64,000 nucleotides of DNA from Balanoglossus misakiensis (taxonomy: Eukaryota > Animalia > Hemichordata), in assembly GCA_040954595.2 (NCBI GenBank), contig CM082596.2:7890468-7954467 (forward strand), read 5' to 3'. Positions within the stretch are counted from its first letter, which is position 1. Each line of letters opens with the position of its first letter. The notes under the pieces are model-generated. The model searched no databases. It was not told the origin of the DNA and saw nothing but the letters and a program-made list of their open reading frames with translations. Position numbers and translations under genes: made by a program. Of this stretch, positions 11,301 to 64,000 are shown one piece after another.

Positions 11301-14300
11301 CTAAAATTACACTCAAGATCTGCCATACAATATCAATTCACCAAGCTATTAATTGAATTCTATTTTCCAGGTTGGTGGATATTCTTTACCATTTGTAGTC
11401 ACGGGAGCATGTATGCTGTTGGTCGCATTTTTAAATTTCTTTATTCTACCTAAAGATGAAGGTAATACACAGAACAGTTTAATATAGTACAACCACGCAA
11501 AATGCTGGCATAGTACTTTTTGCATAATGCTGGTATAGACTTTGCACTGTGACCTCCTACATGTAAACCCTGTTAGTACCAGGCATAAAGAGTAGTATGT
11601 GTTCAACCGTGCCATTTTTTCACAGTGCGGCTAAAAACTCTCAAAAAATTCCCTGCCAGCATTTGGGGGCAAACAAATGACAACAAAGCACAACAAAATT
11701 AATGTCGATGAAATCCTGGCAATGTATGAAAAGACTACCAGCACATATTGCCTTTTGTCGCTGTCATCTTACACAATACTCAGTTACTGTAAAGTAATAT
11801 GTATAGTAAATTACATAAATTTATCTGGAATTTATCTGTTTATTGAATTGCTGTTTATTTCATCATTTCCAGATGTTTTCAGACCACACTCGGGGTCCAT
11901 AATACGTTTTCTGTCTATACCCTCGGTCATAGTAACGTCTGCTTGTCTTCTAAGTGCTGGTTTTTCCATCACCTTTATTCTACCAATATTGGCAAAGCAT
12001 CTCCAGCAGGTAATGTCCACACTATTTGAGTAAATGTCTTGCTTTTGGTATTTTATAGTGTGCTGCATCTTAGTTTTGAAAATGGATTTAGTTTTGAAAA
12101 TGTAGTTAAGTTTTCTCCATCAGCAGTTTGCATACTTGTTTCGCAGTATTAATAATAAGAAACTAATTTTAATATTCCATCTCTTAATTTTAAAGTTTGA
12201 TTTAGATTCAACAGAAGTTGGGTTAGTCTTTCTAACAGTTCCCGCGTCATATGCACTGTTCTCGTTGGTCTGGGGCAGCCTAACAGATAAATTTGTAAGT
12301 ACATGACTTGTATATATACTTCTTGATTATGTCCTGGCATCACCAAATTGGCAAAAGCTGTGTTTGATAATGATGTCACTTCTTTCAAAGTATTCAATGA
12401 CAAGGATGTAACATCTGAAGCAAAGAACAAACATAGCTAGCTATGCACATATGCCCAGCATGGCGTGCAGTGACAGACACACCTATTGCAAAATGGCATC
12501 ATCCACATCGAATTGGGTGGAAGTCAAGCCCAACACCTTTTTCCGATGATTCAGTTATCGCAATAATGGAAATTCTGCCAATTTCCCCCAATTTTTGTTT
12601 AAAATCTTGCAAGTTATACATGACGAAAATGTTTTTTCCTGAAAAAGTGACCTCAAAGCTAGCTCATATTATGTAGAAATCAACTGGACTAAACTACTCC
12701 TTTAAAAGCATAAATAAAATCTAATATTTTTCTGTACTTTTTCCAGAATATACCCAAGCTGTTAATGATTATCGGTAACATTGATTTATGCATATCCTTT
12801 CTTTACTTGGGACCATCGCCATTCTTTAATATTTCAAGGTATATGTCTTCCTGTTCTGTTGGTACATGTATTGTGATTGAAGCACTGCGTTATGGCATTG
12901 ACTGTATACAATATTTATAACCAGAATCTCTGGTTTTGCACATGCGCATAAGACGATCATTGGCCTTTGTAGTAGCATCAGGTTGTACGTGTTTTGCATT
13001 AAAGTAAGGTCTGCCTTAGTTATATTGGGCATGAACAACTGTGATTTACGATCTAATATGTATTACGTTATAAAGGATAGGCTAAACTTACATACTGCAA
13101 GTTATCGAAATCTCATGACAATACAGTTGGGAAAAAACAAATATTTTTGTTTACATTCAGTTTTTGACACATAATTTTAAATATGACAATATACATTGAT
13201 TTCTTTTCAGCCAGATGTGGATGGTGATATTTTCATCGGTTCTAATGGGTATGTCCATAAGTAGTTTTGCTGTTCCAACTTTCTACGATTTTATCACAAC
13301 AGCAAGGTAAGTGAGAGAGATATTCCATAATTTACTTTTGGTACTTCTACTTCATTTCAATGGTATATGCTACAAACGAGGCAGACATTGGCAAATGATA
13401 GATACATAAATGATTGAAACACTTTCCTTTGTATAATAGCGTCATAGTTAACAGAATGTGTCATGTTCACATGATGGGTTTGATAAAAATCTGTATTGAA
13501 GTCCATAGTTATCGTGTTTGAGTATTGCTTCACTTCAGCTTCAAGTTCAGCCTTCTGATATGTTTCTTGATAGTGTGTTTGCATCATTGGCAAGGCATAA
13601 TATGTTGGAAATACAAAAATGTAGTTCTGGTCATACAGATAGTGCATTCACTCATCTTTTCCAGATGGAACGGAATGCCGGATGATATCAGCACCTACGG
13701 CGTCATTTCCGGAATTTTCACAGCACTCACTGGACTAGGGTAAGATTATCACACCTGGTATCTATAATCATTTCTTGCTTTGTGTACGTAGAAAATTTAC
13801 AACATACATGTGTTTCTGTTCAACAACCGCCACCATTCGCAAAATTTTTATTTTTAGCATGTCTACATGTACATTTGATACATTATTCTAATCGTACTTG
13901 TGGACACACACCACAAATGATTAATTGGCCATGCATGATTAGTGCATTGTCAATTGATAAAAAATTGTACCACGTCGATTTCGTTTGTTTCATACTCAGC
14001 AATTGTTTAGGCCCAATTACAGGGGGCGCACTTGTTGACCTTGTTGGTTTTGAGTGGGCGTCTACAGTGATGGCAGCATTTCATCTTTTGATGGCTCTGA
14101 TGGTCAGCTTATTCTGTTTGTGGGAATATCAGTGTGGAAAGGGGTGAGTGTCTCATTTCTTTAGGTCTGCAAATGCTAACCACCACCCACATATACATGT
14201 ACCTGAGTGAGGTATTCCATCGAACAGGAATTTCTTTGTACTGTCTGTACGTTGCTGTATTAAAAACAGTGAATCATGGTGTATGATCAATGATGAGCAG

Positions 14301-14739
14301 GGAATAGTGTAAGACATAATCCCCAGTAAGTTGACGACCAAGTACATTGGGCTGGAAATGCCTTGTGTTGAAATCTGGGAGATCTGGATGATTTGTGACA
14401 CCTGAAGTCGATGGATTGAATTTTCATATTGGAATAGGGGTATTATCAGCTACAGATAAATGCAATAAAGGTATTGGTTGAATACCTCATTTTGACGAAA
14501 TTCCTCCAAGTTTTAGCAGATACTTGATCTTGAAGCTGTATTTACAGACATGTGCCTGACCATAGCTCTTTCATGTTTGGTAAACCTCAATGCCAGAATA
14601 TAAAAGAGTTTTCTGCTATTACTTGAACAGGAGGAGAGTCCCAAAGAAGCGAGACACATGGACATCTCTTAATCATGATGCTAATGAAGGAACGCCATTA
14701 GCTATGTCAAGTCCATTTTCCAAAGAAGTTTCTCCGTAA
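8305..14739 (+). CDS. SLC18B1: MFS-type transporter SLC18B1-like, copy B (13 coding exons, 468 aa)
   Basis: Exons 8305-8475, 8913-9008, 9319-9392, 10171-10324, 10845-10913, 11371-11461, 11873-12009, 12196-12294, 12747-12838, 13211-13306, 13665-13739, 14000-14143, 14631-14739. All introns are GT-AG. The 1407-nt frame is open and ends ...SPFSKEVSP*. Paralog of copy A. Confidence 0.9.
9035..9183. repeat. Imperfect tandem duplication in intron 2 of copy B
   Basis: cataatgatttgaaattta(t/c)tgtaagctcaagaca...gacattcaccatctgaaaatt occurs twice. Confidence 0.8.
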
Positions 14740-15072: not shown

Positions 15073-15309
15073 AAATCGAAACTGGACCACATGTGCTTTA
15101 TTTCTAAAGACCGCCCTCTTTCGTCCAAATCGAGGATCGTGCCAGTTCGCAGAAATGAGTTGTTCATATATGAAGGGGAATTCCCTCGTCTACTTCCATT
15201 TTCCTGAATCGCTGCCTGTTTTAAGGTGTTGCTGTGAACGGATTGTAACTGGGCGAAGAGATTGGTGTACATGTACTTCGCAGGCTCCCTAAACAGGTAT
15301 TTCTATTTC
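15073..15309 (+). promoter_or_regulatory. Candidate immune-inducible promoter motifs (kB site, IRF/ISRE-like cores) upstream of the HEPN-NHL gene
   Basis: GGGGAATTCCC at 15175-15185; AAATCGAAACT at 15073-15083; GAAATAGAAA on the minus strand at 15300-15309. Motif matches only. Confidence 0.45.
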
Positions 15310-15353
15310 ACCGTGTAAATCTCTGCAAAGCGGGCCGCTCACGAAGAGCAGAA

Positions 15354-17834
15354 ATGGCTTCGAACTTTGACCTCACGAAAGAGCTGGAAACAACCGACGA
15401 AAGGACGAACTATGCTCGCCTATGTCGTCTCCTCATCGAAGGCGGTACCAAGGCGTTGCGTGAGCTATTTAACAGAGTCCATCCCCCCGCCCAGCTGGCC
15501 ACAAATCTGGCAGACGCGAATCTGCAGCGCACCCTGAAATCTTTGCTGTCGCGCAAGATTGTCACGCAGAAACAGTACCGCATGGTGTATCCGACGCCGC
15601 TGGGGGCGGTAGACTCGTCCAACTTCGACATCACCTTGCTGATGATATTACTGCGGAATATCTGCAATCTGAAGCAACCGCCAACCGGGTGGGACAACCT
15701 GCCGAGGCCAACGGATACGAGCACGGCCGCGGATGTATCCCGCATCAAGTTCTACCGAAACAAACTCTGCCACGGCCAGAGCGCTGGTGTGAGTGACGCC
15801 CACTTCAACGGCTTCTGGGATGACGTCAGCGAGGCGCTGGTGCGACTCGGTGCCAGGAGATGTGATGTGGACAGGCTGAAAACAGACGCCATGGATAGCG
15901 ATTTAGAGCGCCGATACACGGATGAGGTCTTGGAATGGGCAAGCGCTGATGCCGAAGCCATAGACCTGTTCAGGAACATTCTGAAGGCAGTGACGGCCCC
16001 GGACGATGAGAAACTCTTCTGCGAGGATCACAACGCGCATGCCAATTTGCATTGTGGGTGGTGTAATGAGTTCATCTGCTCGGCGTGTTCCATCGTCAAG
16101 CATCAGTCAGATCGGTGCATGGTGACCGACATCAGGGATGTAGCGCGGGGGCTGCGCAAGCGCATCGGCCTCAAACTACCGGTACTTGAAGAGAAAATTG
16201 CAGAGATTCAGCACGGTCTTGAGGAAGCGGAGCGAGTTTCTCGGTCTCTGGAAGCAGATTTCGAGGAGAAGAGCCAAGCCAAGGAAGAAGTTGGCGGGGA
16301 TGAAACAGACGAAACTGCCGTTGCTGCAAAATTGAACGATCAGTACGAGGAAATAACGAAAGACGTCAAGGAGGAAACTGAGCTTTTGGAACAGAGCGCA
16401 AAAGATGCCGATCATATATTACGCTACTTCAAAAGCCTCCGGCACGTTGAAAATGATGATAAACTGATGACCGAATATAGGATGGCAGAAGCGCAGATTA
16501 AAAAAGTCGCCCAGATTAAGACATCGTTCGCAGTTTGCTACAAATCAGATCCCGGCATACGCTATCTCTACCGCGCCGTCTTCCCCGATGCTTCATCCAT
16601 CAAGCCAACCAGGCAACCGCACGAGCTGAGAACAAACGACGACGTGGCATTCGACGTCTGCGTCAGGAACCACAAGAGAAATCCCGTCCCCGGCGACTGT
16701 GACGAGCTGGAGTGTTACGCCAGGGATGGCGAGGGTCGGGCCATCGGCGTTGTCGTGGAGACGACGTTGCCAGGAGACGACAGCACCCACCGACTGACGT
16801 TCAGAGTTGAAAAGTGGGGCGAGTACGAGGTGGGGGCGAAACTGCTCAACCAGCACATCGGTGGATCACCGCACAGGTTGACAGTTCCCCGGCCGTTTAA
16901 GTTCACCCGCGTCAAGTACAAGGGAGACCCCCCGATGCCGTTTCAAAGAACGGGTCTTTTCGGTCCCGCTCCGATGATTCCCGTCCAACCTACCCTCCCC
17001 GAGCTGATGGAACTTTTGAATGGACCCTATAGCTTTGTGGCCATTAATACTGTCCAGGGAGGGATTGTCGTCGTTGACGCTTCAAGTCCGCCCGAGCTGC
17101 ATCTGTTCAGCCAGAGCCTCGTTCACGAGAAGACCGTCACCATATCTAAAAGGTGCAAAATGTTCTGTATCAAACCGACTTGTGTCGCGGTTTCTCCGCA
17201 CAACACGTGCATCATCGGGAACGAGTATACTCCACTCTGCAAAGAACACCCTGTCGTGGAGTTCGACCTCAACGGCCGGCAGGTCCAGGCAATCAGTTCT
17301 GGAAAGTTGAGCTCAGCAAACGGCGCCGCTTTCAACTACACCATGGGAGTATTATACGTGACCGAGGGGAAGGAACACCGGCTCCACATGTTTCAGTGTG
17401 ACAGCGGCCGGTTCTCGTACATCAAGGCCGTCGGTGGCCGCGGCCGAGGACCCGGTCAGTTCGAGAGCCCGACATCGGTGGCCACCAACGGCGTCGGTAA
17501 CGTCATAGTGTCGGACACGGGCAACGGCAGGGTTCAGGTGTTGAGCGCCGAGGGCGGGTTCCTGCTGCAGTTTGGCGGCGGTCACGGCCGAGAGTTGGGG
17601 AAGACGTTGGAACCGTTAGCAGTGGCCACGGACGGCGACGACAGCGTCTACGTCTGCGAGGGGGACAGGGTGCAGAAATTCAGCCAATCAGGGGAGTTCC
17701 TCAGCTGCCCGCTCCTGCGCAGAGATAACTTCCAATCGCCGCAAACCATCGCTGTTACCAAGGAGACGCCGTTTAAAATACTGGTGACAGACAGGGAGAC
17801 ATTCTGCCTGAAGTGCTATGAGTACGAAACATAG
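15354..17834 (+). CDS. Intronless RING-less TRIM-NHL-like protein with an N-terminal DZIP3-like HEPN domain (HEPN, B-box, coiled coil, filamin/Ig, NHL repeats), 826 aa
   Basis: Single long GC-rich ORF. HEPN_DZIP3-like signatures NYARLCRLLI, FDITLLMILLRNICNL, PPTGWDNLP and RIKFYRNKLCH. B-box CEDH..HCGWCNEFICSACSIVKH. Glu/Lys-rich coiled coil. Filamin-like ..GEYEVGAKLLNQHIGGSPHRLTV. NHL repeat GGRGRGPGQFESPTSVATNGVGNVIVSDTGNGRVQV. Confidence 0.9.
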   Translation: MASNFDLTKELETTDERTNYARLCRLLIEGGTKALRELFNRVHPPAQLATNLADANLQRTLKSLLSRKIVTQKQYRMVYPTPLGAVDSSNFDITLLMILLRNICNLKQPPTGWDNLPRPTDTSTAADVSRIKFYRNKLCHGQSAGVSDAHFNGFWDDVSEALVRLGARRCDVDRLKTDAMDSDLERRYTDEVLEWASADAEAIDLFRNILKAVTAPDDEKLFCEDHNAHANLHCGWCNEFICSACSIVKHQSDRCMVTDIRDVARGLRKRIGLKLPVLEEKIAEIQHGLEEAERVSRSLEADFEEKSQAKEEVGGDETDETAVAAKLNDQYEEITKDVKEETELLEQSAKDADHILRYFKSLRHVENDDKLMTEYRMAEAQIKKVAQIKTSFAVCYKSDPGIRYLYRAVFPDASSIKPTRQPHELRTNDDVAFDVCVRNHKRNPVPGDCDELECYARDGEGRAIGVVVETTLPGDDSTHRLTFRVEKWGEYEVGAKLLNQHIGGSPHRLTVPRPFKFTRVKYKGDPPMPFQRTGLFGPAPMIPVQPTLPELMELLNGPYSFVAINTVQGGIVVVDASSPPELHLFSQSLVHEKTVTISKRCKMFCIKPTCVAVSPHNTCIIGNEYTPLCKEHPVVEFDLNGRQVQAISSGKLSSANGAAFNYTMGVLYVTEGKEHRLHMFQCDSGRFSYIKAVGGRGRGPGQFESPTSVATNGVGNVIVSDTGNGRVQVLSAEGGFLLQFGGGHGRELGKTLEPLAVATDGDDSVYVCEGDRVQKFSQSGEFLSCPLLRRDNFQSPQTIAVTKETPFKILVTDRETFCLKCYEYET

Positions 17835-19070
17835 TTGAAAAACAACCAAAATTCGTACACACGGTATTGAGGATATGGAAATTATGTTTCGATTGAATCA
17901 AAGTGATCGAGAAGCCGTTTTTTTATTATATGGAAGAAGTCCTTTGGTATACAAAGCTTATATGTAACCAGTGGAACATGATTGACAGTGTGCCTTTGTA
18001 ACCCCCCCCCCCCCCGAACTCGTGAATACAAGAAACCTCTCTCCCATTTAAGCGCCCTCTACATTTTCTAATCAATCTATCTTCACCGCGAAATTGTGTA
18101 GATAATCGTAAACTTTCTTAAAGAAACGCAGTGTTGAAATCCGCTTAATATTTGAGGAATTAATTCACAACAGCCCTGTGATCTTACCTTTACCGCGGTT
18201 GTCTGTAATTCCAGAATGCTTTTATGAAGAAATCGTTGGTTTTCTGGAAGAAATAATTGTACGTGCTTTCTTGAAATATCGGGACTATACTCATTTTTTG
18301 TGTCTAACATTTAGTTTTACGCTCATGCATTCATGTCTACATCTGATGTTTTATAAAGTTGCCTCGCCGTGGTTAAGGTCTAGAGATGCGTAATCAGTAA
18401 AGGCACGGTTATCAGAAACGTGTTGTCAGAAAGACATTCTTTTGCACCCGTGCACGTCAATAGGACGCATCACACCACACTAGATCACAACACAAAACAT
18501 CACAACACAATACGCACATCAAAGCACACTGTAACAATGCTATCTGTTGGGTTATGATGCGTGCAGCCCCACATCCGTGGACGTCGCTCGCGGCAAGGCT
18601 CCGTCACAGCCCGGCGATTAACTACATTCTGCATGTGCCAGTGTGTTACTGTGAGCAAAATGATGTACTGTGGCATTTTAAAACGGTTTGTAGGTTGCCA
18701 AACAGGCTATCACTTGACATCTGTCTGCGATGTGAAGGAAAATCAATTGTTGAAGGCGTCGGTCGGCAGTCTGCGCATGGGTGTGGTGCTCATTTAATAC
18801 CCAGAGTCCACTGCAAACAATGGTTGCTTTGTGGCAATCAAGTCTACAAAGTCTCTAAGAAGTAAAAGAGCGCCCCGCGTCTCAGAAATCGGTGTAATTT
18901 GTGATTCTCGACATAATAAAACATAAAACAAGATATTATTTCTCGTTATGAGTGGGTAGCGGCATATAGTTATGCTTATGGTCATTTGTGATATGTCCGT
19001 GTGAGTGGTGTCATCCCAATCTCACTGGATACACAACTACCTTTGATTGAGCAAGAGCAGTTCAACTTGA

Positions 19071-19267
19071 TTAAAAATATACGATCACCTATGGAATAAG
19101 TTATAGCTACAGTTTACAATGGCAAATTGAGATCTAGCCAATCACAGATTTTCAGTGGGTGGCACACGCGAAAAAAGAGCGCCACTGTATGTTCTTTAGA
19201 ACACCCAAATACGCCATTTCTGACATTTATGGGCGTATGTAAATTGAAGGTGACTGTATACCTTTAA
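19071..19267. mobile_element. MITE family D (TTAA-AGG...CCT-TTAA ends, Kolobok-like)
   Basis: Shares its core (gatctagccaatcacagattttcagtgggtggcac) and TIR with 49799-49980 and 58702-58902. An extra right-end copy follows at about 19290-19329. Confidence 0.75.
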
Positions 19268-39069: not shown

Positions 39070-39190
39070 CATACTAATTATTTTATGTTGGTCAAAGGTC
39101 AACTAGCATTCGGTCAGTGCCATTTTTTCATACCAATTATTTTATGTTGGTCAAAGGTCAACTAGCATTCGGTCAGTGCCATTTTTTCAT
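39070..39190. repeat. 59-bp-period tandem duplication spanning the stop codon of the protease gene
   Basis: catac(t/c)aattattttatgttggtcaaaggtcaactagcattcggtcagtgccattttttcat occurs twice. Confidence 0.9.
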
Positions 39191-42100
39191 TGATCCACGA
39201 TGTGAATTCAGGCACCAAGACGTAGACGTTTGGGGAGTTAGCCTCGCCGCATCCACCATATGTCCACGATGTGACTCCCCACAGCGTCCAGATGCCATTC
39301 TGGCTGCAAACCAAAGGTCCACCACTGTCACCAGGGCAGGTATCTGGCCGTCCTTTAATGTATCCAGCGCAAAGCATCTTATCGGTGACAGCACCATTAT
39401 AGATGGTTGGACTATTACAGACACTTGAATCTAATAGTGGAGCCGGTGTCTCTTGTAATATTGCTGGAAACTCAGATCCTACAAAAGAATATAATATGAT
39501 ATGATATGATATGATATGATATGATATGATATGATATGATATGATATGATATGATATGATATGATATGATATGATATGATATGATTGCTAATGAGTATAT
39601 ATCTATACTGTAGAGTGTAATATGGTTCGGGTCTTTAATTATTAACTATAAATATGCATAAACATAAGTAAATAACATATTCATCAACGAAATTCATAAT
39701 TTACAATGTGCACACACACGGTACCATACCTGTACGTCCCCACCCAGAGGTCCAGCATTCATGACCAACAGCAAACTGATCACTTCCTGTTGGCAGACAT
39801 GCTGCCGATACATACGAGTTGAATTTTAAGGCGGCTCCGCACTTTCGTCTGATCTTAATCAAGGCAATATCGTTTTCAGCCGTAGTAATATTAAATTCAC
39901 TATGTGTGTGAAGACATTCAATGTCGAATTCTTGTTCTGTTCCTTCATCCACTGTATTGTCGCGGTCACCAGCTCTCACTGTGTAGTCGTCTTTGCCATA
40001 CCTTTCGGCCGGAGAAAATGAGAACCAAATTAATCTGTGTATGCTTTTGTAAAATAGGATGACAATGTTATCAATGTGCGATATAATTATTTCCAAGTAA
40101 TTTACTATTTGCACTGTTATTCACACTGACAACAACTCATTTACGAAATGACCAACTGGTGGCCACATACTTTCTCGTCGTACGGCCAGGAAGAAAAAAT
40201 AAATTGTTCATCGGAATCGCCGCTTCTACTTTGGCTGATTTGGAATTTTTTTTGGATCTCGGCAAATATTCTACTTCCGCGTTACAAAATTCTTAGTACT
40301 GCAGCTGGTGGCCAGAATATGTTGTGCAAACACCAACTGTAAATGTAATGGCCTATGTTATTGTTGGGAAATATAGTATTGAATTCAGTTACAAGTACAT
40401 GTATCAGTGTTTTTGTCTGAGATATTTCTGGTAAAGAGGGAAACAATTATCTCGCCGTGTCTGCATCTGTGCAAATATGCCAGAGAACCGCATTTTCTTT
40501 CAGCCTAAAAAAAATAAAAATAAAAATATTCGCTCGCGGCTCCTGGAATCAGGTCCAAAAAATCCGATGAACAAGATTTTTTTTCCCTCTCTAGCCTAAC
40601 GCATTATGCCAGCGATTGCAATTAGCCAAAGGGACATACATGTACATACAAGACAGACAGACTGGTACTCACTGATACATAGACACTGGTACATCAGCCC
40701 CCATTCGTAAACGCGAAAACTAATAAAATGCAGGTTTAAAACCACTCGAAATCTTTCCGTTCTTGTCCCGTTTAGTCATCCATGCAGTGTCACCAGTTGT
40801 TTTGTTTTACCATTTTGATTTTAAAACAAAACTGCCATTTGAGCAAAATATTTTAGACATCTTTTGAAGTCTGTCCTACCTGTTAAAACAATGGGCAGCA
40901 GTGACCACGTAGTCTTCACTGATGATAGTTCCACCACAGTTGTGTCGAATTCCGGACACTGGTAGTACCTTCAACCTGAGTGCAATCTGCCATGGCCATT
41001 CCCCAGATTCGGCATCCGTTCCGCCGATAATACGCATTGATGGTCCATTTCTAAATTGACTACCCCTTACGCCACAAACGCTGGACTCTAGAATAGACAG
41101 ACTTACTTGAATGGGCCCGTTGTGGAGTCACTAAAAATGTGTGCAAAGCGGCAAACTACTGGGAAAAGTGTCGACTTGACAATTTTGACGATCACACCTA
41201 TGTGAACTTTGTGGTTTTCATATCCATATCTTGTTTACTGATCGTCGTCATTATCACCATATATACCGTCATCGACGTCGTCGTCGTCATACTAAGTCAT
41301 AATTTATTTATTTTTCTCTGTGACCCTTGTCACCGCACATTGGTCTTTCTATTGTTCGTTATAAACTATACCCATAGTGCTTAGTAGCCACATTGCCAGC
41401 CCAACTCCTAATTGCAACTCCCATACCTGCATATGTTCTGTCAGGAGCGACTTGCAGCTTCCCTGTCTTAACTGCGTCCATGATAACATCGACGTCGGTC
41501 TTATCCTGATTAGATGGATTCTCTGCCAGACACCTCCCTACTCCATTGTTATAGAGGTTCATCAGTCTCTCTGGTAGGGGGTGTACTACCGATCTCTCGT
41601 GTGCATCGCCGAAAGCTTTTGCTGTCTTGGCGTCGTATTCTTTGGTCACTCGATACATGGCCAGGGCGTGTTGAAATGCGTCCCCAGGTCCATTGTAAAG
41701 CTCTGACATATACAATCATGAAACAAGTCATTTCTATAAAGTCAGTCGTGTTTGATGATACTAGGCTTGGCAACTAGCTGACTGTCGTTATTATAAGATT
41801 ACATTCTACCCTTCTGTAGAATTACAACAACAACAGCTAATGGTATATTTTCACCAATGATTATAGCGATCGTACAAAGTGCAGTTGCCATTGCAAAGCA
41901 ACGGCCCACAAAACCCTAAAGGGATAAATATGATTAAAACCAACGATATACTTGTATTTTGCCTTCAATTGATTTTGAAAGAAAAACAATGCCTCACGTC
42001 ATCCATCTTACCTCCAGGGTCAAACCTTGCTTTCGCGTCAGCTCTTGCATTTTCAACGATTTCTTCGATTTGGTCAACCTCCCCAATTATGGCCATCATC

Positions 42101-42323
42101 GTTTCACTTATACCATTTGCGTCGAATTTCAACCTACTATAAGCTTCCGTTACCGATAGTTTTGAAGGTAGTGGTGTGGGACCTTATTGAAAAAAATATT
42201 TATATCAGAAATAAATGAGTCATACTGTATGTATGTAGCCTATGTATGTATGTATGTATGTAGCCTATGTATCTATGTATGTATGTATGTACATGTATGT
42301 ATGTATGTATGTATGTATGTATG

Positions 42324-42362
<39 letters not shown>

Positions 42363-44204
42363 ATGTATGTATGTATGTATGTATGTATGTATGTATGTAT
42401 GTATGTATGTATGTATGTATGTATGTATGTATGTATGTATGTATGTATGTATGTATGTATGTATGTATGTATGTACATCTATGTTAAAACAATTCGTTGC
42501 TTCAAATAAAATTAACCCTACTCACATCTGTAGTCAATACATTGAGAACATGAGCAGTGATCCGGAGTATTGTCACACCAGCCATAATTTGAACAACAAG
42601 GAGAGTTGCCATCAGGGTTACACTCTGCTGGGCTGCCATCAGGAAGGGGATTTTCTGGTCCACACCGATCATCAGCTCGCCATTTTTTACCTAATTTATA
42701 TTCAAAATGTATGCAAAGAAATACACACAATTGTTGTAAATGTGAATAAAAGATTACTTGCTTGAAATTAACAATATAAATTACCGTCTTTTTAGCTATT
42801 TCTGACGATTTTTTTTTTATTTACAAACATGATAATACAGAGAAGTTGTTAGAGCGAGTATTAACATTATTATTATTATTACTACAAGTTTATTCTATGG
42901 TTTAAAGAATTATATAAAAGTTATCGATCGCTGCTTCTCTGAAGCATTTTTCACAAAGACGAGAATAAAACAGCGATCTGTCTGTCTGTGTGTGTGTGTT
43001 TGTGTGTGTAATATATACAAATGTAAATGTTCTAACCGTTTGGTAGTCTGGTTCCCTGCCCCAATCCCTATAGCGTAGCGCAGCCAGCGGTGGGATTGGT
43101 GCAGGGAACCAGACTAGCTGAAATAGGTGATAACGCATACATTGGGAATTGCCTTAAAACAAATAGCGCCCTCACCAGGACAGATTTCATATTTAAATTA
43201 GGATCACGTTTACTGAAAAGGGTAAACATGATATTTGAAAAAAAAAAAACACTTTATAACACGAACAAGAAAATCGTGACACAGGTAACTATAATAATAA
43301 CGTCTCACATCTATCATTGTCCCTCTTCTTTCTGATCAAATTCTGAAGCGCTGTTTCCCGGTGAAGCACAGTTCCGTCTGATCCTCTGTCCGATGTGGCA
43401 CCCCTCTGTAAACAAGGAAGTGAAAAATATTCAAAAGGAGGTTACGGGGTAACATTTAACAATTAAAAGTTCTACAATTAAAAGTTCTATCCATATGAAA
43501 AGCAACAACAATCAAGATTGCATTACAATCTGAGAGTTATGTGTACACAAGACTCGTATAAATGATGAGTTGAATATTGAACTTGATTTTACGTTACTGG
43601 CCATAAAATATTTCGTCGAATGTCTAATCTGTCTACAAACCAAGTTGGGGTTTGTTCAGTTGAAATTTTACGTTACTGGCCATAAAATATTTCGTCGAAT
43701 GTCTAATCTGTCTACAAACCAAGTTGGGGTTTGTTCAGTTGACCTGTATTTAAGTATGCTTTATGTCAAACGACATACATTTTCATATCAAACCATAGTC
43801 ATCAAAATGCCACGGTCAAAAAGAGCCGATTTTGCCTCTTCAAACTGACAACTGTGCCATGGCCGCTCAACTCGTGCATGTGAAGTTGCAGTAGGCCTAC
43901 ATGTTTGTATATATTTTTACTATCATATCGGATCAGTCTCTTAGAGTGAATAATTATGGAAAAATATTAGTATTATTATTTACCAAAAGACAAAGTAGTT
44001 TCCAAAGAATGAAAGCGAATGGTACAGAAAAAGATATTCCTTTAAAACTAATGAAATAGAAAAAAAAAGCTATCAAACCAGGTACGTATTCCAACGGGAC
44101 ACTTTTCCGATTTTCTTATTTCCTGTTCGACCATGTTGACTGCATTGAGTTAGCGTTGCCACTGACAACGTCAGCGCAACAATCACCGGCACCCAGAAGC
44201 GCAT
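39162..44204 (-). CDS. Secreted multidomain protein: signal peptide, propeptide (RKKR), chitin-binding type-1-like module, DUF6973/min-Wnt-like domain, trypsin-fold S1A protease (543 aa)
   Basis: Exons (minus) 44079-44204, 43309-43405, 42526-42690, 42012-42182, 41427-41702, 40880-41087, 39730-40001, 39162-39478; 1632 nt in frame. Motifs: [17 protein letters not shown]; [38 protein letters not shown]; [26 protein letters not shown]; activation site R|IIGG; catalytic triad TAAHC, NDIAL, GDSGGP. Confidence 0.88.
39496..39585. repeat. (ATATG)n microsatellite
   Basis: Read directly; lies just upstream of the acceptor of the last protease exon. Confidence 0.95.
42227..42475. repeat. Compound (TATG)n/(TG)n microsatellite
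   Basis: Read directly. Confidence 0.95.
43045..43117. mobile_element. Short fold-back element TAGTCTGGTTCCCTGC...GCAGGGAACCAGACTA
   Basis: About 25-bp near-perfect inverted arms within an intron. Confidence 0.6.
43587..43742. repeat. 79-bp-period tandem duplication
   Basis: ttttacgttactggccataaaatatttcgtcgaatgtctaatctgtctacaaaccaagttggggtttgttcagttga occurs twice. Confidence 0.9.
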
Positions 44205-45153
44205 TTCTTCAACTTTTTCTTCTACCGTGCAAACGTTGGTTTTGAGAATCGCTGACTTGGTATTTGTCTCGTCTCCACCAAGCAGACAGATATATACTTG
44301 CAGAGAGATTGGTGCCTTCTAGAAAACAGCGGTCGAACAGAACAGCGTCGTCCAGTCGACGTATTTGTTCTTTTTTTCTATTGTGTAGACCATGAGTGTC
44401 ACCTGAGACGAATATACTTTGTAAGGTATACTAGTCCCAGGTGTCACTGACCCCTTTCTCTGCAAACGTCTGAGCACGAACCAAGGTGACTCACAAGCAA
44501 AGTTAACAGGGGGTTTCACATTGCTACAAGAACATGGGTAAGATGACATTTATAGTATATAGAACCTCTCCCAAGATATTGAAGTGAATTCCAGTAACTA
44601 TAAAATCAACGCAGCTGCATTCATACTACGTTTATTCACATAATTAAATCTTGAATATACATACTAGTATAAGACATATGTAGTACAAATCTCGCCGAAG
44701 CAGATAATTATACAGATCCAAGTCGACCATTGTCTTGTTTACGCGGCGTTTTGGCAGAATACAAAAAAGACACTCAATAGTATAATATTTAAAAAACAAA
44801 ATGAACGTTTACATAAATTCAAACCATCTTTAGAAACTTGAATTAAAGAAACAGCAAACCATTGTTGTAGTAAATCGAATCAATTTAACTAGTTATAGAG
44901 TTGCTAATCTTACATCATAGAACAATAACCTACTCTGAAAATCTGAAATGGGAAAGTCGCAATTTGTTCGCAGATAACAAGGCTACTCTTTGCGGTTATA
45001 CAATCATATTTAGTGAGATATTCAAAACTTACTACTATTATGATCTAAGTCTTTGTAACATTGACATTTCTATTGAAATGCAGTAGCGGAAACAAAACTT
45101 CAGACAAATGCTTCTGCCGGGCCCGGCGGACATTCATCGGACATACCCAAAAA

Positions 45154-47814
45154 CTAATCGAATTCAAACAACCTGTTATCTTTACATTCATACTTATGGC
45201 CCCAGTCCATGAAGTAACATTGCCCACCGCAGGTTGTCCCATTCCATATGTCAACGTGACCGGTTGCACCGCTGAAAGAGCACTCCTCAAATACGATTAT
45301 TCCTTTCTTGTTCTGAGAGAGAAAGAGAGAGGGCAGACAGACAGAGGGAGAGAGATGACCGCGTATTAATTACATGTAGGCCTAGTTATTGATGATCATA
45401 TCCTACACCATAATGGGTGTGACGTTATTCACATCACTTTACCTGTAGCAATACCTATGGTAGCGCGTGGATAATTTAAACCCAGCTAGAGTATCTGACT
45501 GCCAGGCAGACCCTCTAGCTAGGTTAGCTACAACCTCCGGAGAATGTGAAATGACCTGTACCGAAAGTAGAATTTCTGTCAAAACCAGCAGAGCATACTT
45601 ACCAGGAAGTTAGATTTTGTTTCTCCAGTCACAGTAGCTCCACCTCGTTTTTCTTCTAAGTAAGACCGTACCACCCTGACCCGCAAAATGTATCGCTCAC
45701 CGTCATCGTTCGTACACTTAGCCCAATCGTGCTTAGCCGGGTCAAAATAAATTCTGTGTCCTGCAAATGCACATGTTTACTTGTTTCAGAGATTGGTTGT
45801 TGTATTTGGGCGGGGTGGGGGAACAATTATGAAAACAGTCCAATGTCACGTGTACATGCATAATATTTTTAAAGTCAGAGAAGATATTTTTGGTGTCCGC
45901 CTGTTTTGGATAGGAAAGAACAGAACAATCTCAAACCCCAAAATCACACTCCACTTTATTCAAGTTTTGTTACGTTCTCAATTTTGAATATGTTCCACGG
46001 TGTGTTTATTTCACGGTTGCTCAGAACAGCAGTGGTGACGTCATTTCAGGGAGTTTCACGTCTGAGGGATTATTGAACTTTGATCATGTGATGTGGGGGG
46101 GGGGGGGTTGTACTCAGACTTACCAGAAGTGATGAGCGCCAGACTCACTCTTATGGCGCAGGCATTTGAACCTTCGTACTTTTTTGGCAGCTTGCAATGT
46201 TGGATTAAAGTTGGTGTAGTTGTTGAGTTATATTGATGGTACCGAGGATAATTGGACCACAGATCTGCGAAACTGGGCCACTTTTCTGCAAAATAATGAA
46301 AATATAGCAATTTAGATTTCGTACATTTTCAAAATCTTGGTTATGAACTACGCTGTTTCTGAGCAGTGAATCGAGGTGACCAGAAGCAAGCGAATGAGTA
46401 CAAGCAGGTTCAATTTACGAAACAGATTGCCGCAAATACTCCGAAGCACGCAGGTCGTGGAGATTTAGCCCGACCCACTTTCCCGCAATTAGCAACTCAG
46501 GTTGAACGCTTACTTTGTGTGTTTGTACGTCGTCTTGTCAACTCTCTATTGGGGAGAGAGCTGACCGTACAAAAGAGCGCAAACCGATCTAGAGTTGGGC
46601 TTCAGAATCAATTATAACACACCATGCAGCAAACCGTGATTCGTCAATACGCCGTCACGTGACCTTAGTCATTTCGAACTGTTCCCTAAGGCATCAGTTC
46701 GATCGGTTTCTGCCCGGTACTGTTGCCTGGATGTGGTGTGTGTCGTGTTTGGTGTGTTATAAAACACATGATGACTGACATATTCGGGCAACAGTGTATT
46801 TTTGATGACCTCGGGACTGCCAGTCACACCAAAACAGTCCGTTTTCCCTCGGGTTATGCCCTCGGGAAAACAAGACTGTTTTAGTTGTGACTAGCAGCGC
46901 CCTCAGTCATCAAAATACACTGTTGCCCTCGTTGTCAGTCATCATGTGTATAATATACGTACCAGCGTAGGACCTATCTGGGGCGACCTGCAACTTCCCT
47001 GTCTCCACTGCGTCCATGATAACATCGACGTCGGTCTTATCCTGATTAGATGGATTCTCTGCCAGACACCTCCCTACCCGATGATTGTATAGATCCATTA
47101 GGCGTTCTTCCAAAGGGTTTACGTACTGTCTCTCGTAGGCATCACCAACAGCTTTCGCTGTCATGGCGTTGTATTCCTTCGTCACTCGATACATGGCCAG
47201 GGCAACTCGAAATGCGTCCCCAGGTCCATTGTGGAGCTCTGTTCGATATTTACAAGAAAAATCATGTGCTATTTGAAATGCATGTGTATTATAAATGGTG
47301 TGTTTTAAAGGGACAAAGTCTGTCTCTGGCTGCCCCCTTTTTCCATTAATTCTGTTCGATAGTTCGCTGTATCTTCAATGTCTGGTCATTATATGAGTAA
47401 CTTTAATATTGATTTGGAGTAAGTATATTTAATATATGGTTTTCGACATAAAAAGAGAGACCTTACGCCTTTAACTTCACAAATCAAAGTCAGCTATCTT
47501 GTTCTAATGGTGTTTATTTGCAGTGCACTTATAGCCTTTCTAAGATGTAGACAATCACAGGAACTGAATTGTCACTTTTTTAACAATTGAAACGTTTTAA
47601 TTATTTTGAAAAAAAAAATGTCCAGTTTTCCCTACCTGTGCTGCCAAACCTTGCCTTTGCATCAGCAGTACTGTTGTTATTGATTTCATGCATAGTGGTA
47701 TTTGTCCAATAGAATAAAATGCTCAACAAAGTTAGTGATATACCTCGATGGTTGAATTTAAACCTATCATACGCTTTCATTTCCGTCAGATTTGATGGGA
47801 GAGGATTTGAGCCT

Positions 47815-47906
<92 letters not shown>

Positions 47907-47929
47907 AAGATAGATAGATAGATAGATAA

Positions 47930-48002
<73 letters not shown>

Positions 48003-48017
48003 CCGATATATAGACAA

Positions 48018-48060
<43 letters not shown>

Positions 48061-49261
48061 CATAGAGAGAGAGAGAGAGAGAGAGAGAGATGTTAACATT
48101 GAATCGCAAACCAAAACAAGCGTATACTCAAGTCACGCTACTTGCATGTATCTGCAGCTGAGTTGAACTTGTATTGATACCCATACATCGAGTGTTTTAA
48201 AACAACAGTGCCTCATCTCCCTTACGATATCCCAGGACAGCTTTTGTGTACAAATTTAAAAAAATATTGACGGTATAAAGGATAACTGATAAACTTTACA
48301 GTAAATTATCCTACCACAGCCTTTGTCTCTGTTATTTCCGATCAAATGCTGAAGCGCTGATCCCCTAGCCCTGCGAACCACATTTGCACTGTCCGGCTCC
48401 GCGCCCCTCTGTAAACAAGGAAGTTGACAAATCCCGGAAGGGGTGGGGGGGGGGTGTTCATGCATTTGGTATATTTTCAGTTCCAGGGATTACGAGGTTA
48501 TTTTTCAAATTAAATAACAGTATCCCGATTACTAATATATATCAACAGGGCCACCGCCAAATCCCCCAAAAGTTAGTTCCACCCTAGGTGGCGCAACAGT
48601 AAAAGTACATAGATCAAAACTGAATACTATGTACGTGATAGATAGTGAAATATAGTCACTTTGGAACAGTATTTTTGAAACAGTTGCGACGATTCGATCC
48701 GACTATAACGGAACTTGATCACGCAATGGTGTTAATTATTCAGCGTTGATGTCTCAGCAACAGCCGGAATAATATGCAACTATTTCAAAAATACTGTTCC
48801 AAAGTGACTACTATTTCACTATCTACTTTGATTCTTGGAACCATGAACAATATATTTTCCACGTGTACGTGATGTATGTGCGGTCATGTATTCAACCCGT
48901 ACACATACATGTACAGAGTGTATTTTGTATATGTTTTTCACTTTTATCATTTTGAATAAGCCAGGCAGGGTGAATAATTAAACAATAGGGACTACGGTTA
49001 AATTTATGAGGCAGTTGTTGTTTTTTGTTACCAAAAAGAATTCATCGCATTTCCTGGTTCATGGTACAGAAAAAAAAAGAAATTCCTCTAAAACTAATGA
49101 AATATAAAAAGTGATCAAACCAGGTACGTCTTCCAACGGGACACTTTTTCGATTTTCCTATTTGCTGTTAGATCACTACTCAGTCCATTTGTTTGTTGAG
49201 TTGTTGGTGTTGCCACTGACAACGTCAGCAAAACTATCAACGGTACCCAGCAGAAGCGCAT
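45154..49261 (-). CDS. dae4: Secreted multidomain protein: signal peptide, propeptide (RRAR), DUF6973/min-Wnt-like domain, Tae4-family (NlpC/P60) peptidoglycan amidase; domesticated amidase effector (dae4-like), 388 aa
   Basis: Exons (minus) 49121-49261, 48315-48408, 47636-47812, 46963-47238, 46124-46285, 45603-45760, 45154-45312; 1167 nt in frame. Tae4-like signatures [23 protein letters not shown] (Cys codon 46158-46160), [11 protein letters not shown] and [22 protein letters not shown] (His codon 45256-45258). Confidence 0.85.
46757..46953. mobile_element. Fold-back (palindromic) MITE-like element of about 200 bp
   Basis: Arms catgatgactgac..gggcaacagtgtattttt gatgac..gtcaca..aaaacagtc..gttttcc pair with ggaaaac..gactgtttt..tgtgac..gtcatcaaaatacactgttgccc..gtcagtcatcatg. 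Confidence 0.7.
47815..48088. repeat. Compound (GATA)n/(GACA)n/(GA)n microsatellite
   Basis: Read directly. Confidence 0.95.
48639..48825. mobile_element. MITE-like element with about 50-bp inverted arms
   Basis: tagatagtgaaata.tagtcactttggaacagtatttttgaaa.agttgc pairs with gcaactatttcaaaaatactgttccaaagtgactactatttcactatcta. Confidence 0.7.
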
Positions 49262-49798
49262 TTCTTCAACTTTTTGTTCTGTTTCAACTGGTATATCTGT
49301 GACTTGGTCAGTATTGTCTTGCCTCCACAAAACAGGTCGATATTTGCAAAGACTGGTCTCTGTAATCGAAGAGACTGATATAGAGTTGCCTTCCAGAAAA
49401 CAACTGTCGAACAGGACTACGTCAACCTCTGGTGTTAGTTCTTTATGTTGTCTATTGTGCAGACTCGTTTTTTTTAAAAACGTCTGCGCACGTAGGCCTA
49501 CCAAGTGACTCACAGGTCATAATACAGGGGGTGCCACATTGATTCGGGAACATGCGTAAATATGAATTTACCTATTGTAACTACGTCATTGTGTGGCCGC
49601 GATGTTTTGATTACGTCACTGTAACGTTGTCTTCATTTTTCTTTTCAGTCGTCAAAGTTGAGATTATCCACTTCTGGTGCGTGAAAATAATATGACTGGC
49701 ATCGTCACAGAAAAAAAGTCATGCGGCAACATACCGAAAATAATACGGTGTGCCATTTTGAGTTATGCTCCGCGTTAATTTTTCGCAAACAAAATTAA

Positions 49799-49980
49799 TT
49801 AAAGGTATACGGTCACCTATACAAATTTAGCCACAGTTACCATGGTAAATCGAGATCTAACCAATCACAGATTTTCAGTGGGTGGCACACGCGAAAATAA
49901 AGCGTTCTTTAGAACACTCAAATACGCCATTTCAACTATATATGGCGATATGTAAATTGGAGGTGACCGTATACCTTTAA
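49799..49980. mobile_element. MITE family D, intact copy
   Basis: TTAAAGGTATACGGTCACCT...AGGTGACCGTATACCTTTAA, a perfect 20-bp inverted repeat. Confidence 0.85.
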
Positions 49981-58701: not shown

Positions 58702-58902
58702 TTAAAGGTACACAGTCACCTCTAATTTACATACATACATGTATGTCCATAAATGGCAAAATTGTGTATCTGTGTATTCTAAAGAACATATGGTGGCGCT
58801 TTTTTTTTTTACTAGTGCCACCCACTGAAAATCTGTGATTGGCTAGATCTCAGTTTGCCATGATAACTGTAGCTTAATTTCTACAGGTGACTATACTTTT
58901 AA
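58702..58902. mobile_element. MITE family D, opposite orientation
   Basis: TTAAAGGTACACAGTCACCT...AGGTGACTATACTTTTAA; core is the reverse complement of the 49799 copy. Confidence 0.8.
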
Positions 58903-62225: not shown

Positions 62226-62404
62226 ATTTTCACGATATCAAAATAGGCAACTGTTACGCAAGGATTAATTTTCACATTCTTGTATTTCACTAACTGCATC
62301 GTTATCTCTGAATAACATTTTACGCGACTTTTTATTTACACGTTTTTTGGCTCTCGCGTATTTCGTGAAATTTATTGCTTGCAAAAATAACCCGTTTTAC
62401 AGTA
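62226..62404. mobile_element. MITE family A, left-truncated copy
   Basis: gatatcaaaataggcaactgttacgc...AAAATAACCCGTTTTACAGTA; similar to 5765-5975. Confidence 0.75.
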
Positions 62405-62531
62405 ATGATATACGTCCATGACAGAATAGGATATCCGGTAACTGATACGTCAACAGGACTTATCAGGTCAAGTCCTGTCATGGCATACATATACGGAGTG
62501 AACAATTTTACCATTAATCTGCTCAGTTATA

Positions 62532-62727
62532 TACTGTAAAACACTTTATTTTAATTAGTTAAAATTTTCGCGATATCGAGAGAGGCCACTGTTTCGCGAG
62601 TATTAATTTTCGCGTTCTCTTATTTCATTCACTGCATCGTTGTCTTCAAAAAAAATTTACGCGACTTTTTATTTTCACGTTATTTTGGCTCTCGCGTATT
62701 TCGCAAAAAATAAAGTGTTTTACAATA
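62532..62727. mobile_element. MITE family A
   Basis: TACTGTAAAACACTTTATTTT...AAAATAAAGTGTTTTACAATA; nearly identical to 2846-3059. Confidence 0.85.
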
Positions 62728-63520
62728 TTTCATAAAAACTAATAGGGGATAATTTGATACTAGCAGGAGTTCAGCTATGTTGAATGTCTTAGCAAAAGGT
62801 CTGTATACTTGTGAACATATCTGTGTGTCAGACTGTCGTCCAGTTTGTGTGTCAATCAATTGCTTCTACTTATAGAACACACACTAAAAATATGACGTCT
62901 TTGTGAAGATTTTTGTGTGTGTTGCCATTGTTAATCTTTTATACCCAGATTATTTCAATGCGTTATACTGCATTCTATTTTTTGGTGCAATCGATATAAA
63001 AAATCCATAATTTCGCATAAAGGATTCCTATATATGGCTTGCACTACATGTAGTTTCTATAGGTGATATACAGCCTACATGCATTTAGTACAGTACAGCT
63101 GAATGCAGTAAAGTAGCTGTAGAAGAATATGATGTCAATGCTGAATAATATCATGTGGTGATATTAATTTGGGCACTTTTGTTCTCGGTTATATTGGCTA
63201 TGATTGTTAAACAGCAGTTAATGTATGGTATAACTATAAAAAAGAAATTCGTCGAAACACTTACTTTACATTAAAAAATCTTGGGAGCAAGGGAGTTGTT
63301 CAGCAATGAACTTGTCTTCAAAAAGTTATAGGGCATCCCCCCCCCCCTCCCTTGATTAAAAATCACACCAGCATCAAATACTCTCAAAAACTCAGTTTAT
63401 ACACTAAAAACTGTTTAAATCGGATACCATATGGACTGATTGGTTTGCTGGGGTGTCTGGTTTATAGAGCTTCTTTTAATATGTACAGTGTAGTTATGTG
63501 TGCAGAAAGGGACCGGAAAA

Positions 63521-63733
63521 TACTGTAAAACACTTTATTTTCGCGAGCAATTAATTTTCGCCAAATACGCAAGAGCCAAAATAGCGTGAAAATAGAAAAG
63601 TCGCGTAAATTGTTTTTGAGGATAACGATGCAGTGAATGAAATAAGAGAACGCGAAAATTAATACTTGCGAAACAGTGGCCTCTCTCGACATCGCGAAAA
63701 ATTTAACTCGCGAAAATAAAGTGTTTTACAGTA
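63521..63733. mobile_element. MITE family A, opposite orientation
   Basis: TACTGTAAAACACTTTATTTTCGCGAG...CTCGCGAAAATAAAGTGTTTTACAGTA, a perfect TIR. Confidence 0.85.
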
Positions 63734-64000
63734 TGTTCGGTATAGACGTGTTTCAAGATTAGACAGGGTTCGGTTTAGACAGGTTTAATGTACAATCAGA
63801 CTACCATATCCACTTGCAGTGATCGATGAGCTGGAAAAAAACACTGATTTCGACAATGAAGAATTCATCATCTGTGCTGAACTGCACACTGTCATTTGCG
63901 ATATACGTTTTCCTGTGATATACATGTATGTCTGTGATGATGAGAATTTATTGCCGTGTTTTGAGTTTATGGTGGAATCATTGACGTGACTGTGAGTGGG

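What the first reader, a model, noticed from the sequence alone, without database searches (positions are those of the whole stretch)
41427..47238. Complementary degeneration of putative active-site residues in the two min-Wnt-like domains
Seen: the protease-linked copy reads DAFQHA / GDAHE / LMNLYNN, keeping His and His-Glu but with Asn for Asp, as in animal Wnts. The amidase-linked copy reads DAFRVA / GDAYE / LMDLYNH, losing both His residues and keeping Asp. The rest of the exon is highly similar, so the changes concentrate on motif positions. Inference: an enzyme-to-binding-module transition, different lipid specificities, or subfunctionalisation. This would parallel the proposed origin of Wnt from an enzymatic ancestor.
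Basis: partly seen in the sequence, partly recalled or inferred. Interest (0 to 1): 0.7.

Follow-up and report, generated by a model that had tools for sequence, protein, structure and literature searches.

The report
Disarmed Wnt-like domains on worm enzymes
Two neighbouring genes, likely of an acorn worm, each carry a bacterial-type Wnt-like domain that has lost different key pocket residues but is predicted to keep its fold, and is likely now a non-catalytic helper attached to an enzyme with its catalytic residues intact (a cell-wall amidase or a protease), a state common among its acorn-worm relatives.

Summary
The motif changes are real and hit near-invariant positions. The only solved relative found is BteO, a Bacteroides antibacterial effector. 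'Complementary' is not supported: non-overlap has P=0.36, a Ptychodera tandem pair shares its losses, and part of the exon's similarity is a 71-nt conversion-like tract. H→Y is a natural variant (12 of 137 other homologues). The pattern is lineage-wide: only 6 of 15 acorn-worm-clade Min-Wnt genes keep the His/Glu/Asp triad, against 135 of 137 others, and they are fused to amidase, trypsin, lipase or pesticin plus PGRP. Best reading: released catalysis in a retained accessory domain, like PGLYRP2's inactive TelC. Binding is inferred, not shown. Side result: BteO, published as non-enzymatic, is a Min-Wnt.

The parts
45154..49261 (-). Gene A model: 7 exons, 380 aa, signal peptide - pro-region - degenerate Min-Wnt - Tae4/Dae4 amidase
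   Evidence: open frame, all introns GT-AG; exon 1 donor is one of two candidates, no RNA support
47636..47812 (-). Gene A exon 3: N-terminal part (helix 1) of the Min-Wnt domain
   Evidence: tblastn with P. flava P0001
46963..47238 (-). Gene A exon 4: Min-Wnt core, DAFRVA / GDAYE / MDLYNH
   Evidence: Pfam DUF6973 51.3 bits; model tops BteO, Wnt8A, PSS1
47204..47206 (-). H to V codon (BteO H144 equivalent; His in 137/137 and 220/220 others)
47135..47137 (-). H to Y codon (BteO H167 equivalent; Tyr also in 12/137 otherwise intact rows)
47081..47083 (-). N to H codon in the sNxxGR motif
47007..47077 (-). 71-nt tract identical to 41471-41541; likely gene conversion
   Evidence: 22 same-residue codons in a row without a synonymous change, P=0.00035; dS outside the tract 1.0
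45154..46285 (-). Gene A exons 5-7 (46285-46124, 45760-45603, 45312-45154): Tae4/Dae4 amidase with NACAIRVS Cys and GHVDIWNG His
   Evidence: Pfam Tae4 35.1 bits on the last exon; 59-71% identical to P0001 exons; P0001 aligns to solved Tae4, E 8e-16
39162..44204 (-). Gene B model: 8 exons, 535 aa, signal peptide - pro-region ending RKKR - hevein-like - degenerate Min-Wnt - trypsin zymogen
   Evidence: open frame, all introns GT-AG; no RNA support
42526..42690 (-). Gene B exon 3: Cys-rich hevein-like module, phase 1-1
   Evidence: Pfam Chitin_bind_1 E 8e-4, below the cut-off; phases
42012..42182 (-). Gene B exon 4: N-terminal part of the Min-Wnt domain
   Evidence: 46% identical to gene A exon 3, dN/dS 0.70
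41427..41702 (-). Gene B exon 5: Min-Wnt core, DAFQHA / GDAHE / MNLYNN
   Evidence: Pfam DUF6973 53.6 bits; ESM Atlas DUF6973 clusters 0.94
41671..41673 (-). R to Q codon (BteO R143 equivalent), without the Lys that accompanies this loss in 7 of 8 other rows
41557..41559 (-). D to N codon (BteO D191 equivalent; ancestral H4 Asp; Asn in Wnt3a/5a/7a)
39162..41087 (-). Gene B exons 6-8 (41087-40880, 40001-39730, 39478-39162): trypsin with [25 protein letters not shown]
   Evidence: Pfam Trypsin on all three exons; motifs in frame

Best explanation
Both genes are predicted to encode secreted, likely antibacterial proteins in which a Min-Wnt (Lipocone) domain, likely of bacterial origin, has lost residues of its active groove but is predicted to keep its fold, so that it likely serves as a non-catalytic binding or docking module for an attached enzyme whose catalytic residues are intact. 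Shown: the residue changes, their near-invariance elsewhere, their match to BteO's toxicity-essential groove residues, purifying selection on the exon, open frames, and intact catalytic motifs of amidase and trypsin. Inferred: the groove was released from selection (possibly from the W to A/T change shared with the P. flava pair), each copy then lost its own residues after duplication, and the kept E and N still grip a bacterial envelope ligand, most likely a polyprenyl-phosphate carrier or peptidoglycan-linked target. This would bring the Dae4 amidase to the cell wall (gene A) or localise a trypsin zymogen with its hevein-like module (gene B).
For: Triad H/E/D intact in 6 of 15 acorn-worm-clade genes against 135 of 137 other rows (Fisher 2.7e-9, rows not independent). 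In the clade of the window's genes and the P. flava pair, pocket columns change more than equally conserved structural columns (1.25 against 0.31 changes per column, p=0.018), while in the intact clade they hardly change (0.12). Core exon dN/dS 0.17 at dS 0.66. Gene A core model pLDDT 95.8; best of 48,161 chains BteO Z 8.6 (rmsd 3.5, 90 aligned), Wnt8A 7.8, PSS1 6.4. BteO R143A, H144A, H167A, E168A, D187A, D191A abolish toxicity and line one groove (PMC12541434); all 11 interface residue numbers fit the alignment by hand count. E and first N unchanged in the clade. 6 of 7 fused copies break the triad. Precedent: inactive Met-TelC fused to an amidase in PGLYRP2 (PMC12419801); Nematostella Dae4 is antibacterial.
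Against: No binding, activity or expression data; no RNA. Pocket columns do not change faster than the average column (0.80, P=0.14), so decay without a new function fits equally. Fusion does not predict decay: one lipase fusion (P0124) is intact and 3 of 8 stand-alone copies are broken (Fisher p=0.12). H to Y is a natural variant. The model is driven by an alignment of mostly intact relatives and lacks helix 1; Z 8.6 is modest for a helical fold. No Min-Wnt has a shown enzyme activity in the papers read; BteO is published as non-enzymatic.
Confidence: 0.55

Rival explanations
1. The domain is only a structural passenger (folding, secretion or pro-domain scaffold): its groove decays neutrally and binds nothing.
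For: Pocket changes run at about the average rate (1.25 against 0.80, P=0.14); each lineage loses different residues; D to N and H to Y are single transitions; three stand-alone degenerate copies appear to lack a signal peptide (sequences).
Against: E and first N are unchanged in the clade; Asn is 4 of the 6 replacements of the Asp; the domain is kept beside four unrelated kinds of enzyme.
Confidence: 0.2
2. One or both copies remain enzymes with a changed substrate or a lower rate.
For: Gene A keeps R, E, D; gene B keeps H, H-E, N-N; H to Y occurs in 12 otherwise intact rows; Lipocone families differ in active-site residues.
Against: His is 137/137 and 220/220 and Asp 135/137 and 221/221 in others; BteO mutants at these sites are dead; gene B's Arg loss lacks the Lys seen in 7 of 8 comparable rows.
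Confidence: 0.12
3. The groove was a protein-binding site from the start (as published for BteO and OmpA), and the changes are diversifying selection for new targets or escape from bacterial immunity proteins.
For: BteO binds OmpA C-domains and its immunity protein through these residues; the helix-1 exon diverges fast (dN/dS 0.70); changes at the 13 invariant columns have dN/dS 0.28 against 0.14 elsewhere.
Against: No dN/dS above 1 in either Min-Wnt exon; an invariant R-H, H-E, D set looks catalytic, and related Lipocones (TelC, PTDSS, YfiM) are enzymes; the BteO paper never mentions lipid II.
Confidence: 0.09
4. The two copies complement each other (subfunctionalisation or a composite site in a heterodimer), as the finding's title implies.
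For: Their losses do not overlap; the genes are adjacent and share a similar first exon (85% identity).
Against: Non-overlap has P=0.36; the residues line one groove within one chain; the P. flava tandem pair shares H to Y, D to A, N to R.
Confidence: 0.04

Closest known systems
Min-Wnt family (Pfam DUF6973), SAW clade of the Lipocone superfamily (Burroughs, Nicastro, Aravind 2025, PMC12419801)
   Same: Pfam match, helical core, motifs on H2-H4, presence in acorn worms, predicted antibacterial role
   Different: The paper calls the Saccoglossus versions catalytically active and primarily stand-alone; here the triad is broken and the domain is fused to Tae4 or trypsin (0 mentions of either in its main text; its Figure 5 source data 2 could not be read)
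BteO, Bacteroides fragilis T6SS effector (PDB 9UU0, PMC12541434)
   Same: Sequence E 5e-10, top structural match, same R-H, H-E, D groove
   Different: Bacterial, membrane-anchored, groove intact, has an immunity protein; each window copy lacks two of its six essential residues
PGLYRP2 (inactive Met-TelC Lipocone + amidase)
   Same: Secreted, predicted-inactive Lipocone in front of a peptidoglycan amidase
   Different: Other Lipocone family (TelC) and other amidase (Amidase_2 type rather than Tae4); independent origin inferred
Metazoan Wnt
   Same: Same core fold (Z 11.0 for the intact S. kowalevskii model); Asn at the Asp position as in gene B
   Different: Wnts have DARE and long Cys-rich inserts with the lipidated Ser; the window's domains have none, so no Frizzled signalling is implied
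Domesticated amidase effector Dae4 / Tae4
   Same: Cys and His catalytic motifs in gene A; Nematostella Dae4 is antibacterial
   Different: Carries an N-terminal Min-Wnt domain, as does P. flava XP_070570416

Membership tests
DUF6973 / Min-Wnt (by descent) | Pfam DUF6973 score above the curated cut-off | tested here: met
   51.3 and 53.6 bits against 27
DUF6973 / Min-Wnt (by descent) | Lipocone helical core with the fifth helix, without Met-Wnt inserts | tested here: met
   Gene A core model has four helices H2-H5 (helix 1 lies in the previous exon); best matches BteO Z 8.6, Wnt8A 7.8, PSS1 6.4; no insert between H2 and H3
Catalytically intact Min-Wnt effector | His (H2), Glu (H3), Asp (H4) triad | tested here: not met
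   Gene A lacks the His, gene B lacks the Asp; not filed under this class
Catalytically intact Min-Wnt effector | sNxxGR motif on H4 | tested here: not met
   Met in gene B (NNGVGR), broken in gene A (NHRVGR)
Catalytically intact Min-Wnt effector | Cleavage of lipid head groups or toxicity to bacteria | not testable with these tools
   needs assays
Metazoan Wnt | Cys-rich hairpins and lipidated Ser loop between H2 and H3 | tested here: not met
   One Cys in each core exon, no insert
Tae4/Dae4 amidase (gene A) | Tae4 profile match and catalytic Cys and His | tested here: met
   Pfam 35.1 bits against 27; NACAIRVS and GHVDIWNG in frame; same motifs align to solved Tae4 through P0001; their catalytic role is recalled
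Trypsin-type serine protease (gene B) | His/Asp/Ser triad, activation site, S1 Asp | tested here: met
   [25 protein letters not shown] in frame; Pfam Trypsin; motif roles recalled
Hevein chitin-binding domain (gene B exon 3) | Pfam Chitin_bind_1 above the cut-off | tested here: inconclusive
   20 bits against 27.8, E 8e-4
PGLYRP2-like inactive-Lipocone pattern receptor (works-like claim) | Binding of a bacterial envelope ligand by the inactive Lipocone | not testable with these tools
   architecture alike; binding is only proposed even for PGLYRP2

The most novel reading that the evidence does not exclude
Acorn worms have replayed the origin of Wnt: a bacterial Min-Wnt toxin was disarmed several times, repeatedly by the same Asp-to-Asn change that Wnts carry, into a modular lipid-II or carrier-lipid sensor that is exon-shuffled onto amidase, protease, lipase and lysozyme-like enzymes; and BteO, the only tested Min-Wnt, is in fact a carrier-lipid phosphatase rather than a non-enzymatic binder.
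Probability: 0.25. Interest if true: 0.75.

Novelty: new variant of a known kind. Interest (0 to 1): 0.5.

Why it matters
The family offers intact and disarmed versions of the Wnt ancestor side by side in one animal lineage, with a solved, mutagenised bacterial relative. That makes two open claims testable: that Min-Wnts are lipid enzymes, and that loss of the His or Asp leaves a ligand-binding pocket, as proposed for Wnt and PGLYRP2. It also qualifies the published description of acorn-worm Min-Wnts as active and mostly stand-alone, and points to an untested enzymatic reading of BteO. The two-gene 'complementarity' itself is likely ordinary.

Tried and rejected
No whole genome is held for the window, so paralogues in this species were not counted. 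No RNA holder was listed. Earlier-findings look-ups returned nothing. Mapping to YfiM's tested residues failed (hhalign probability 0.1%), so YfiM and VanZ mutants are not used as position-level evidence. The search for TelC's catalytic residue found 0 papers. Foldseek with the exon-only model gave no match at E<=0.001 and did not list BteO among the rows shown; with the P0002 model BteO was first at E 0.016. PDB alignments never covered Wnt helix 2, so Wnt's residue at the first His was not seen. A single origin of all 10 degenerate genes was not rejected (AU p=0.198), nor a clade of the three Tae4-linked genes (p=0.253). Phage tblastn gave 1 weak match. The first exon coordinates tried were off by one base and were corrected. 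Chou et al. 2015 and Burroughs and Aravind 2020 are not held. The one supplement of PMC10210618 had 0 hits. Complex prediction was not run: only core exons without helix 1 could be sent. Pseudogene reading rejected: open frames, GT-AG sites, dN/dS 0.17.
Full report
Setting. The window is intron-rich animal DNA. No genome is held. The closest proteins come from Ptychodera flava, Saccoglossus kowalevskii and Glandiceps talaboti, so it is likely an acorn worm; the species was not sought. Two tandem minus-strand genes hold the finding. Gene A (49261-45154, 7 exons, 380 aa) is signal peptide, pro-region, Min-Wnt, Tae4 amidase. Gene B (44204-39162, 8 exons, 535 aa) is signal peptide, pro-region, hevein-like exon, Min-Wnt, trypsin. 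Both models are open with GT-AG introns; they are my models, without RNA support, and signal peptides were read by eye. The amidase keeps its Cys and His motifs and the trypsin its triad, activation site and S1 Asp (motif roles recalled).

Observation. The motifs are as reported. Using the intact S. kowalevskii protein P0002 (DAFRHALW / GDAHE / MDLYNN) as reference, 13 columns are at least 97% invariant in 221 non-hemichordate domains (gathered with motif-seeded searches, the best 120 of 2898 proteins and 80 of 552 genome loci, so biased). Gene A departs at four (H to V, W to A, H to Y, N to H), gene B at three (R to Q, W to A, D to N). In a less biased set, 137 rows outside the acorn-worm clade from a phmmer search (best 150 of 2575 listed; taxa mostly unnamed), the first His is 137 of 137, Glu 137, Asp 135, Arg 128, second His 121. 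All 12 rows with Tyr for the second His keep R, H, E, D, so gene A's H to Y is weak evidence; loss of the Arg goes with a Lys near the Asp in 7 of 8 rows, and gene B has none. The diagnostic hits are therefore H to V in A and D to N plus R to Q in B. Wnt5a, 7a and 3a have Asn at the Asp position but Arg at the second His.

A common pocket. A profile of 70 homologues finds PDB 9UU0 at E 5e-10. This is BteO (PMC12541434; parts 1-4 of 7 read, supplements not read). Counting along the alignment, all 11 interface residues named in the paper fall in register. R143, H144, H167, E168, D187 and D191, whose Ala mutants abolish toxicity and line the alpha3-alpha6 groove, are the Min-Wnt R, H, H, E, E and D. 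Gene A lacks the H144 and H167 equivalents, gene B the R143 and D191 equivalents. A model of P0002 matches BteO (Z 13.2, rmsd 3.5, 129 aligned), Wnt (11.0) and SAA3 (7.7) among 207 chains. A model of gene A's core exon (pLDDT 95.8) ranks BteO, Wnt8A and PSS1 first among 48,161 chains (Z 8.6, 7.8, 6.4); these Z values are modest for helical folds and the model leans on its alignment. The Lipocone paper (PMC12419801; abstract, sections 5, 7, 31, 33, second part of 38 and passages read) names His, Glu and Asp on H2-H4 as the ancestral active site. The BteO paper has 0 mentions of Wnt, Lipocone or lipid II, and the Lipocone paper 0 of BteO. It reports tests for glycoside hydrolase and amidase activity only, so 'non-enzymatic' leaves a carrier-lipid phosphatase open; YfiM, another Lipocone, has such activity with Ca2+ (bioRxiv 10.64898/2026.09.16.752124; abstract and first part of Results read), though I could not align YfiM to Min-Wnt.

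Concentration and complementarity. Between A and B, 5 of 16 residue differences fall on 13 of 91 invariant columns (P=0.048). A 71-nt identical tract (47077-47007 / 41541-41471) interrupts an exon with dS about 1.0 outside it, which points to gene conversion (P=0.00035 at codon level); without it P=0.11. The helix-1 exon is only 46% identical, dN/dS 0.70, against 0.17 for the core. Non-overlap of the losses has P=0.36. P. flava has a related pair on one contig length with consecutive accessions (P0001, P0210) that share H to Y, D to A and N to R. These four genes form a supported clade (97/94) and all lack the Trp. In it, pocket columns change 1.25 times on average, equally conserved structural columns 0.31 (p=0.018), all other columns 0.80 (P=0.14). 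This is release from constraint, not shown acceleration.

Lineage-wide pattern. The acorn-worm clade holds 17 rows, 15 genes after dropping one allele and one isoform; 11 are named hemichordate proteins, 2 unnamed (P0189, P0221), 2 from the window. Six of 15 keep the triad against 135 of 137 outside. Asn accounts for 4 of 6 replacements of the Asp. Partners are Tae4 (P0001, gene A; a remnant in P0210), trypsin (gene B), lipase (P0124 intact, P0195 broken) and pesticin plus amidase (P0221). Six of 7 fused and 3 of 8 stand-alone copies break the triad (p=0.12). The free tree needs 4 changes of the degenerate label, but one origin is not rejected (AU p=0.198); the individual residue losses in A and B must still postdate their split unless conversion or reversion restored residues.

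Mechanism. Most likely (0.55) the domain lost its ancestral activity, kept its fold, and binds an envelope ligand for an intact enzyme, as proposed for PGLYRP2's inactive TelC. Nematostella Dae4 is antibacterial (bioRxiv 10.1101/2021.05.13.443009, passages read). Binding is inferred. Rivals: passenger scaffold (0.20), altered enzyme (0.12), retargeted protein binder (0.09), complementation (0.04).

Novelty. Acorn-worm Min-Wnts are known, described as active and primarily stand-alone. I found no description of degenerate or Tae4- or trypsin-fused versions, nor of BteO as a Min-Wnt, in searches and text look-ups 77, 102 (judged from listings for the searches). The Lipocone paper's Figure 5 source data 2 was unreadable and may list these architectures; two earlier papers (Chou 2015; Burroughs and Aravind 2020) are not held and only recalled. 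Verdict: real observation, partly right interpretation, a new variant of a known kind; interest 0.5.

Noticed in passing
PDB 9UU0: BteO, published as a non-enzymatic OmpA-binding T6SS effector, is a Min-Wnt Lipocone, and its six toxicity-essential residues are the predicted catalytic set; carrier-lipid hydrolysis is not mentioned in the paper.
   Followed up: partly
P0221: Unnamed 749-aa protein in the acorn-worm clade with pesticin-like lysozyme, degenerate DUF6973 and two Amidase_2 stretches: three antibacterial modules in one chain.
   Followed up: partly
P0124, P0195 (G. talaboti): Min-Wnt fused to a pancreatic-type lipase, one with the triad intact and one with R to Q, H to Y, D to N, the same changes as in the window's genes.
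   Followed up: partly
P0175, P0186, P0198, P0213, P0220, P0232, P0249: A subgroup swaps the positive charge: DAFRH...MD becomes NAFxH-like...KD; 7 of 8 rows that lose the Arg gain this Lys, which hints at phosphate binding (rows may be related).
   Followed up: partly
window 15249-17831 (+): Single 861-codon open frame with HEPN_DZIP3, B-box, filamin and NHL matches: an intronless TRIM-NHL-like gene with a HEPN domain.
   Followed up: no
window 1-14665: Inverted duplication of a multi-exon MFS transporter gene: matching blocks 2009-6841 against 12844-8067 at 71-82%, and 1-671 against 14665-13996 at 91%.
   Followed up: no
window 44019-44223 and 49061-49280: First exons and intron starts of genes B and A are 79% identical, more than the helix-1 exons (63%): patchwork similarity.
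   Followed up: partly
window 42526-42690: Hevein-like exon is phase 1-1 between two phase-1 exons, so it could be skipped in frame and looks exon-shuffled.
   Followed up: no
window 19064-19267, 49792-49980, 58702-58902; 2846-3060, 5765-5975, 62226-63734; 43586-43742: Two families of about 200-bp dispersed repeats, and an exact 78-bp tandem duplication in gene B intron 1.
   Followed up: no
L002 1358-1809 (Acinetobacter plasmid NZ_CP010903.1): The Min-Wnt match spans two annotated short genes although the core stretch translates in one frame.
   Followed up: no
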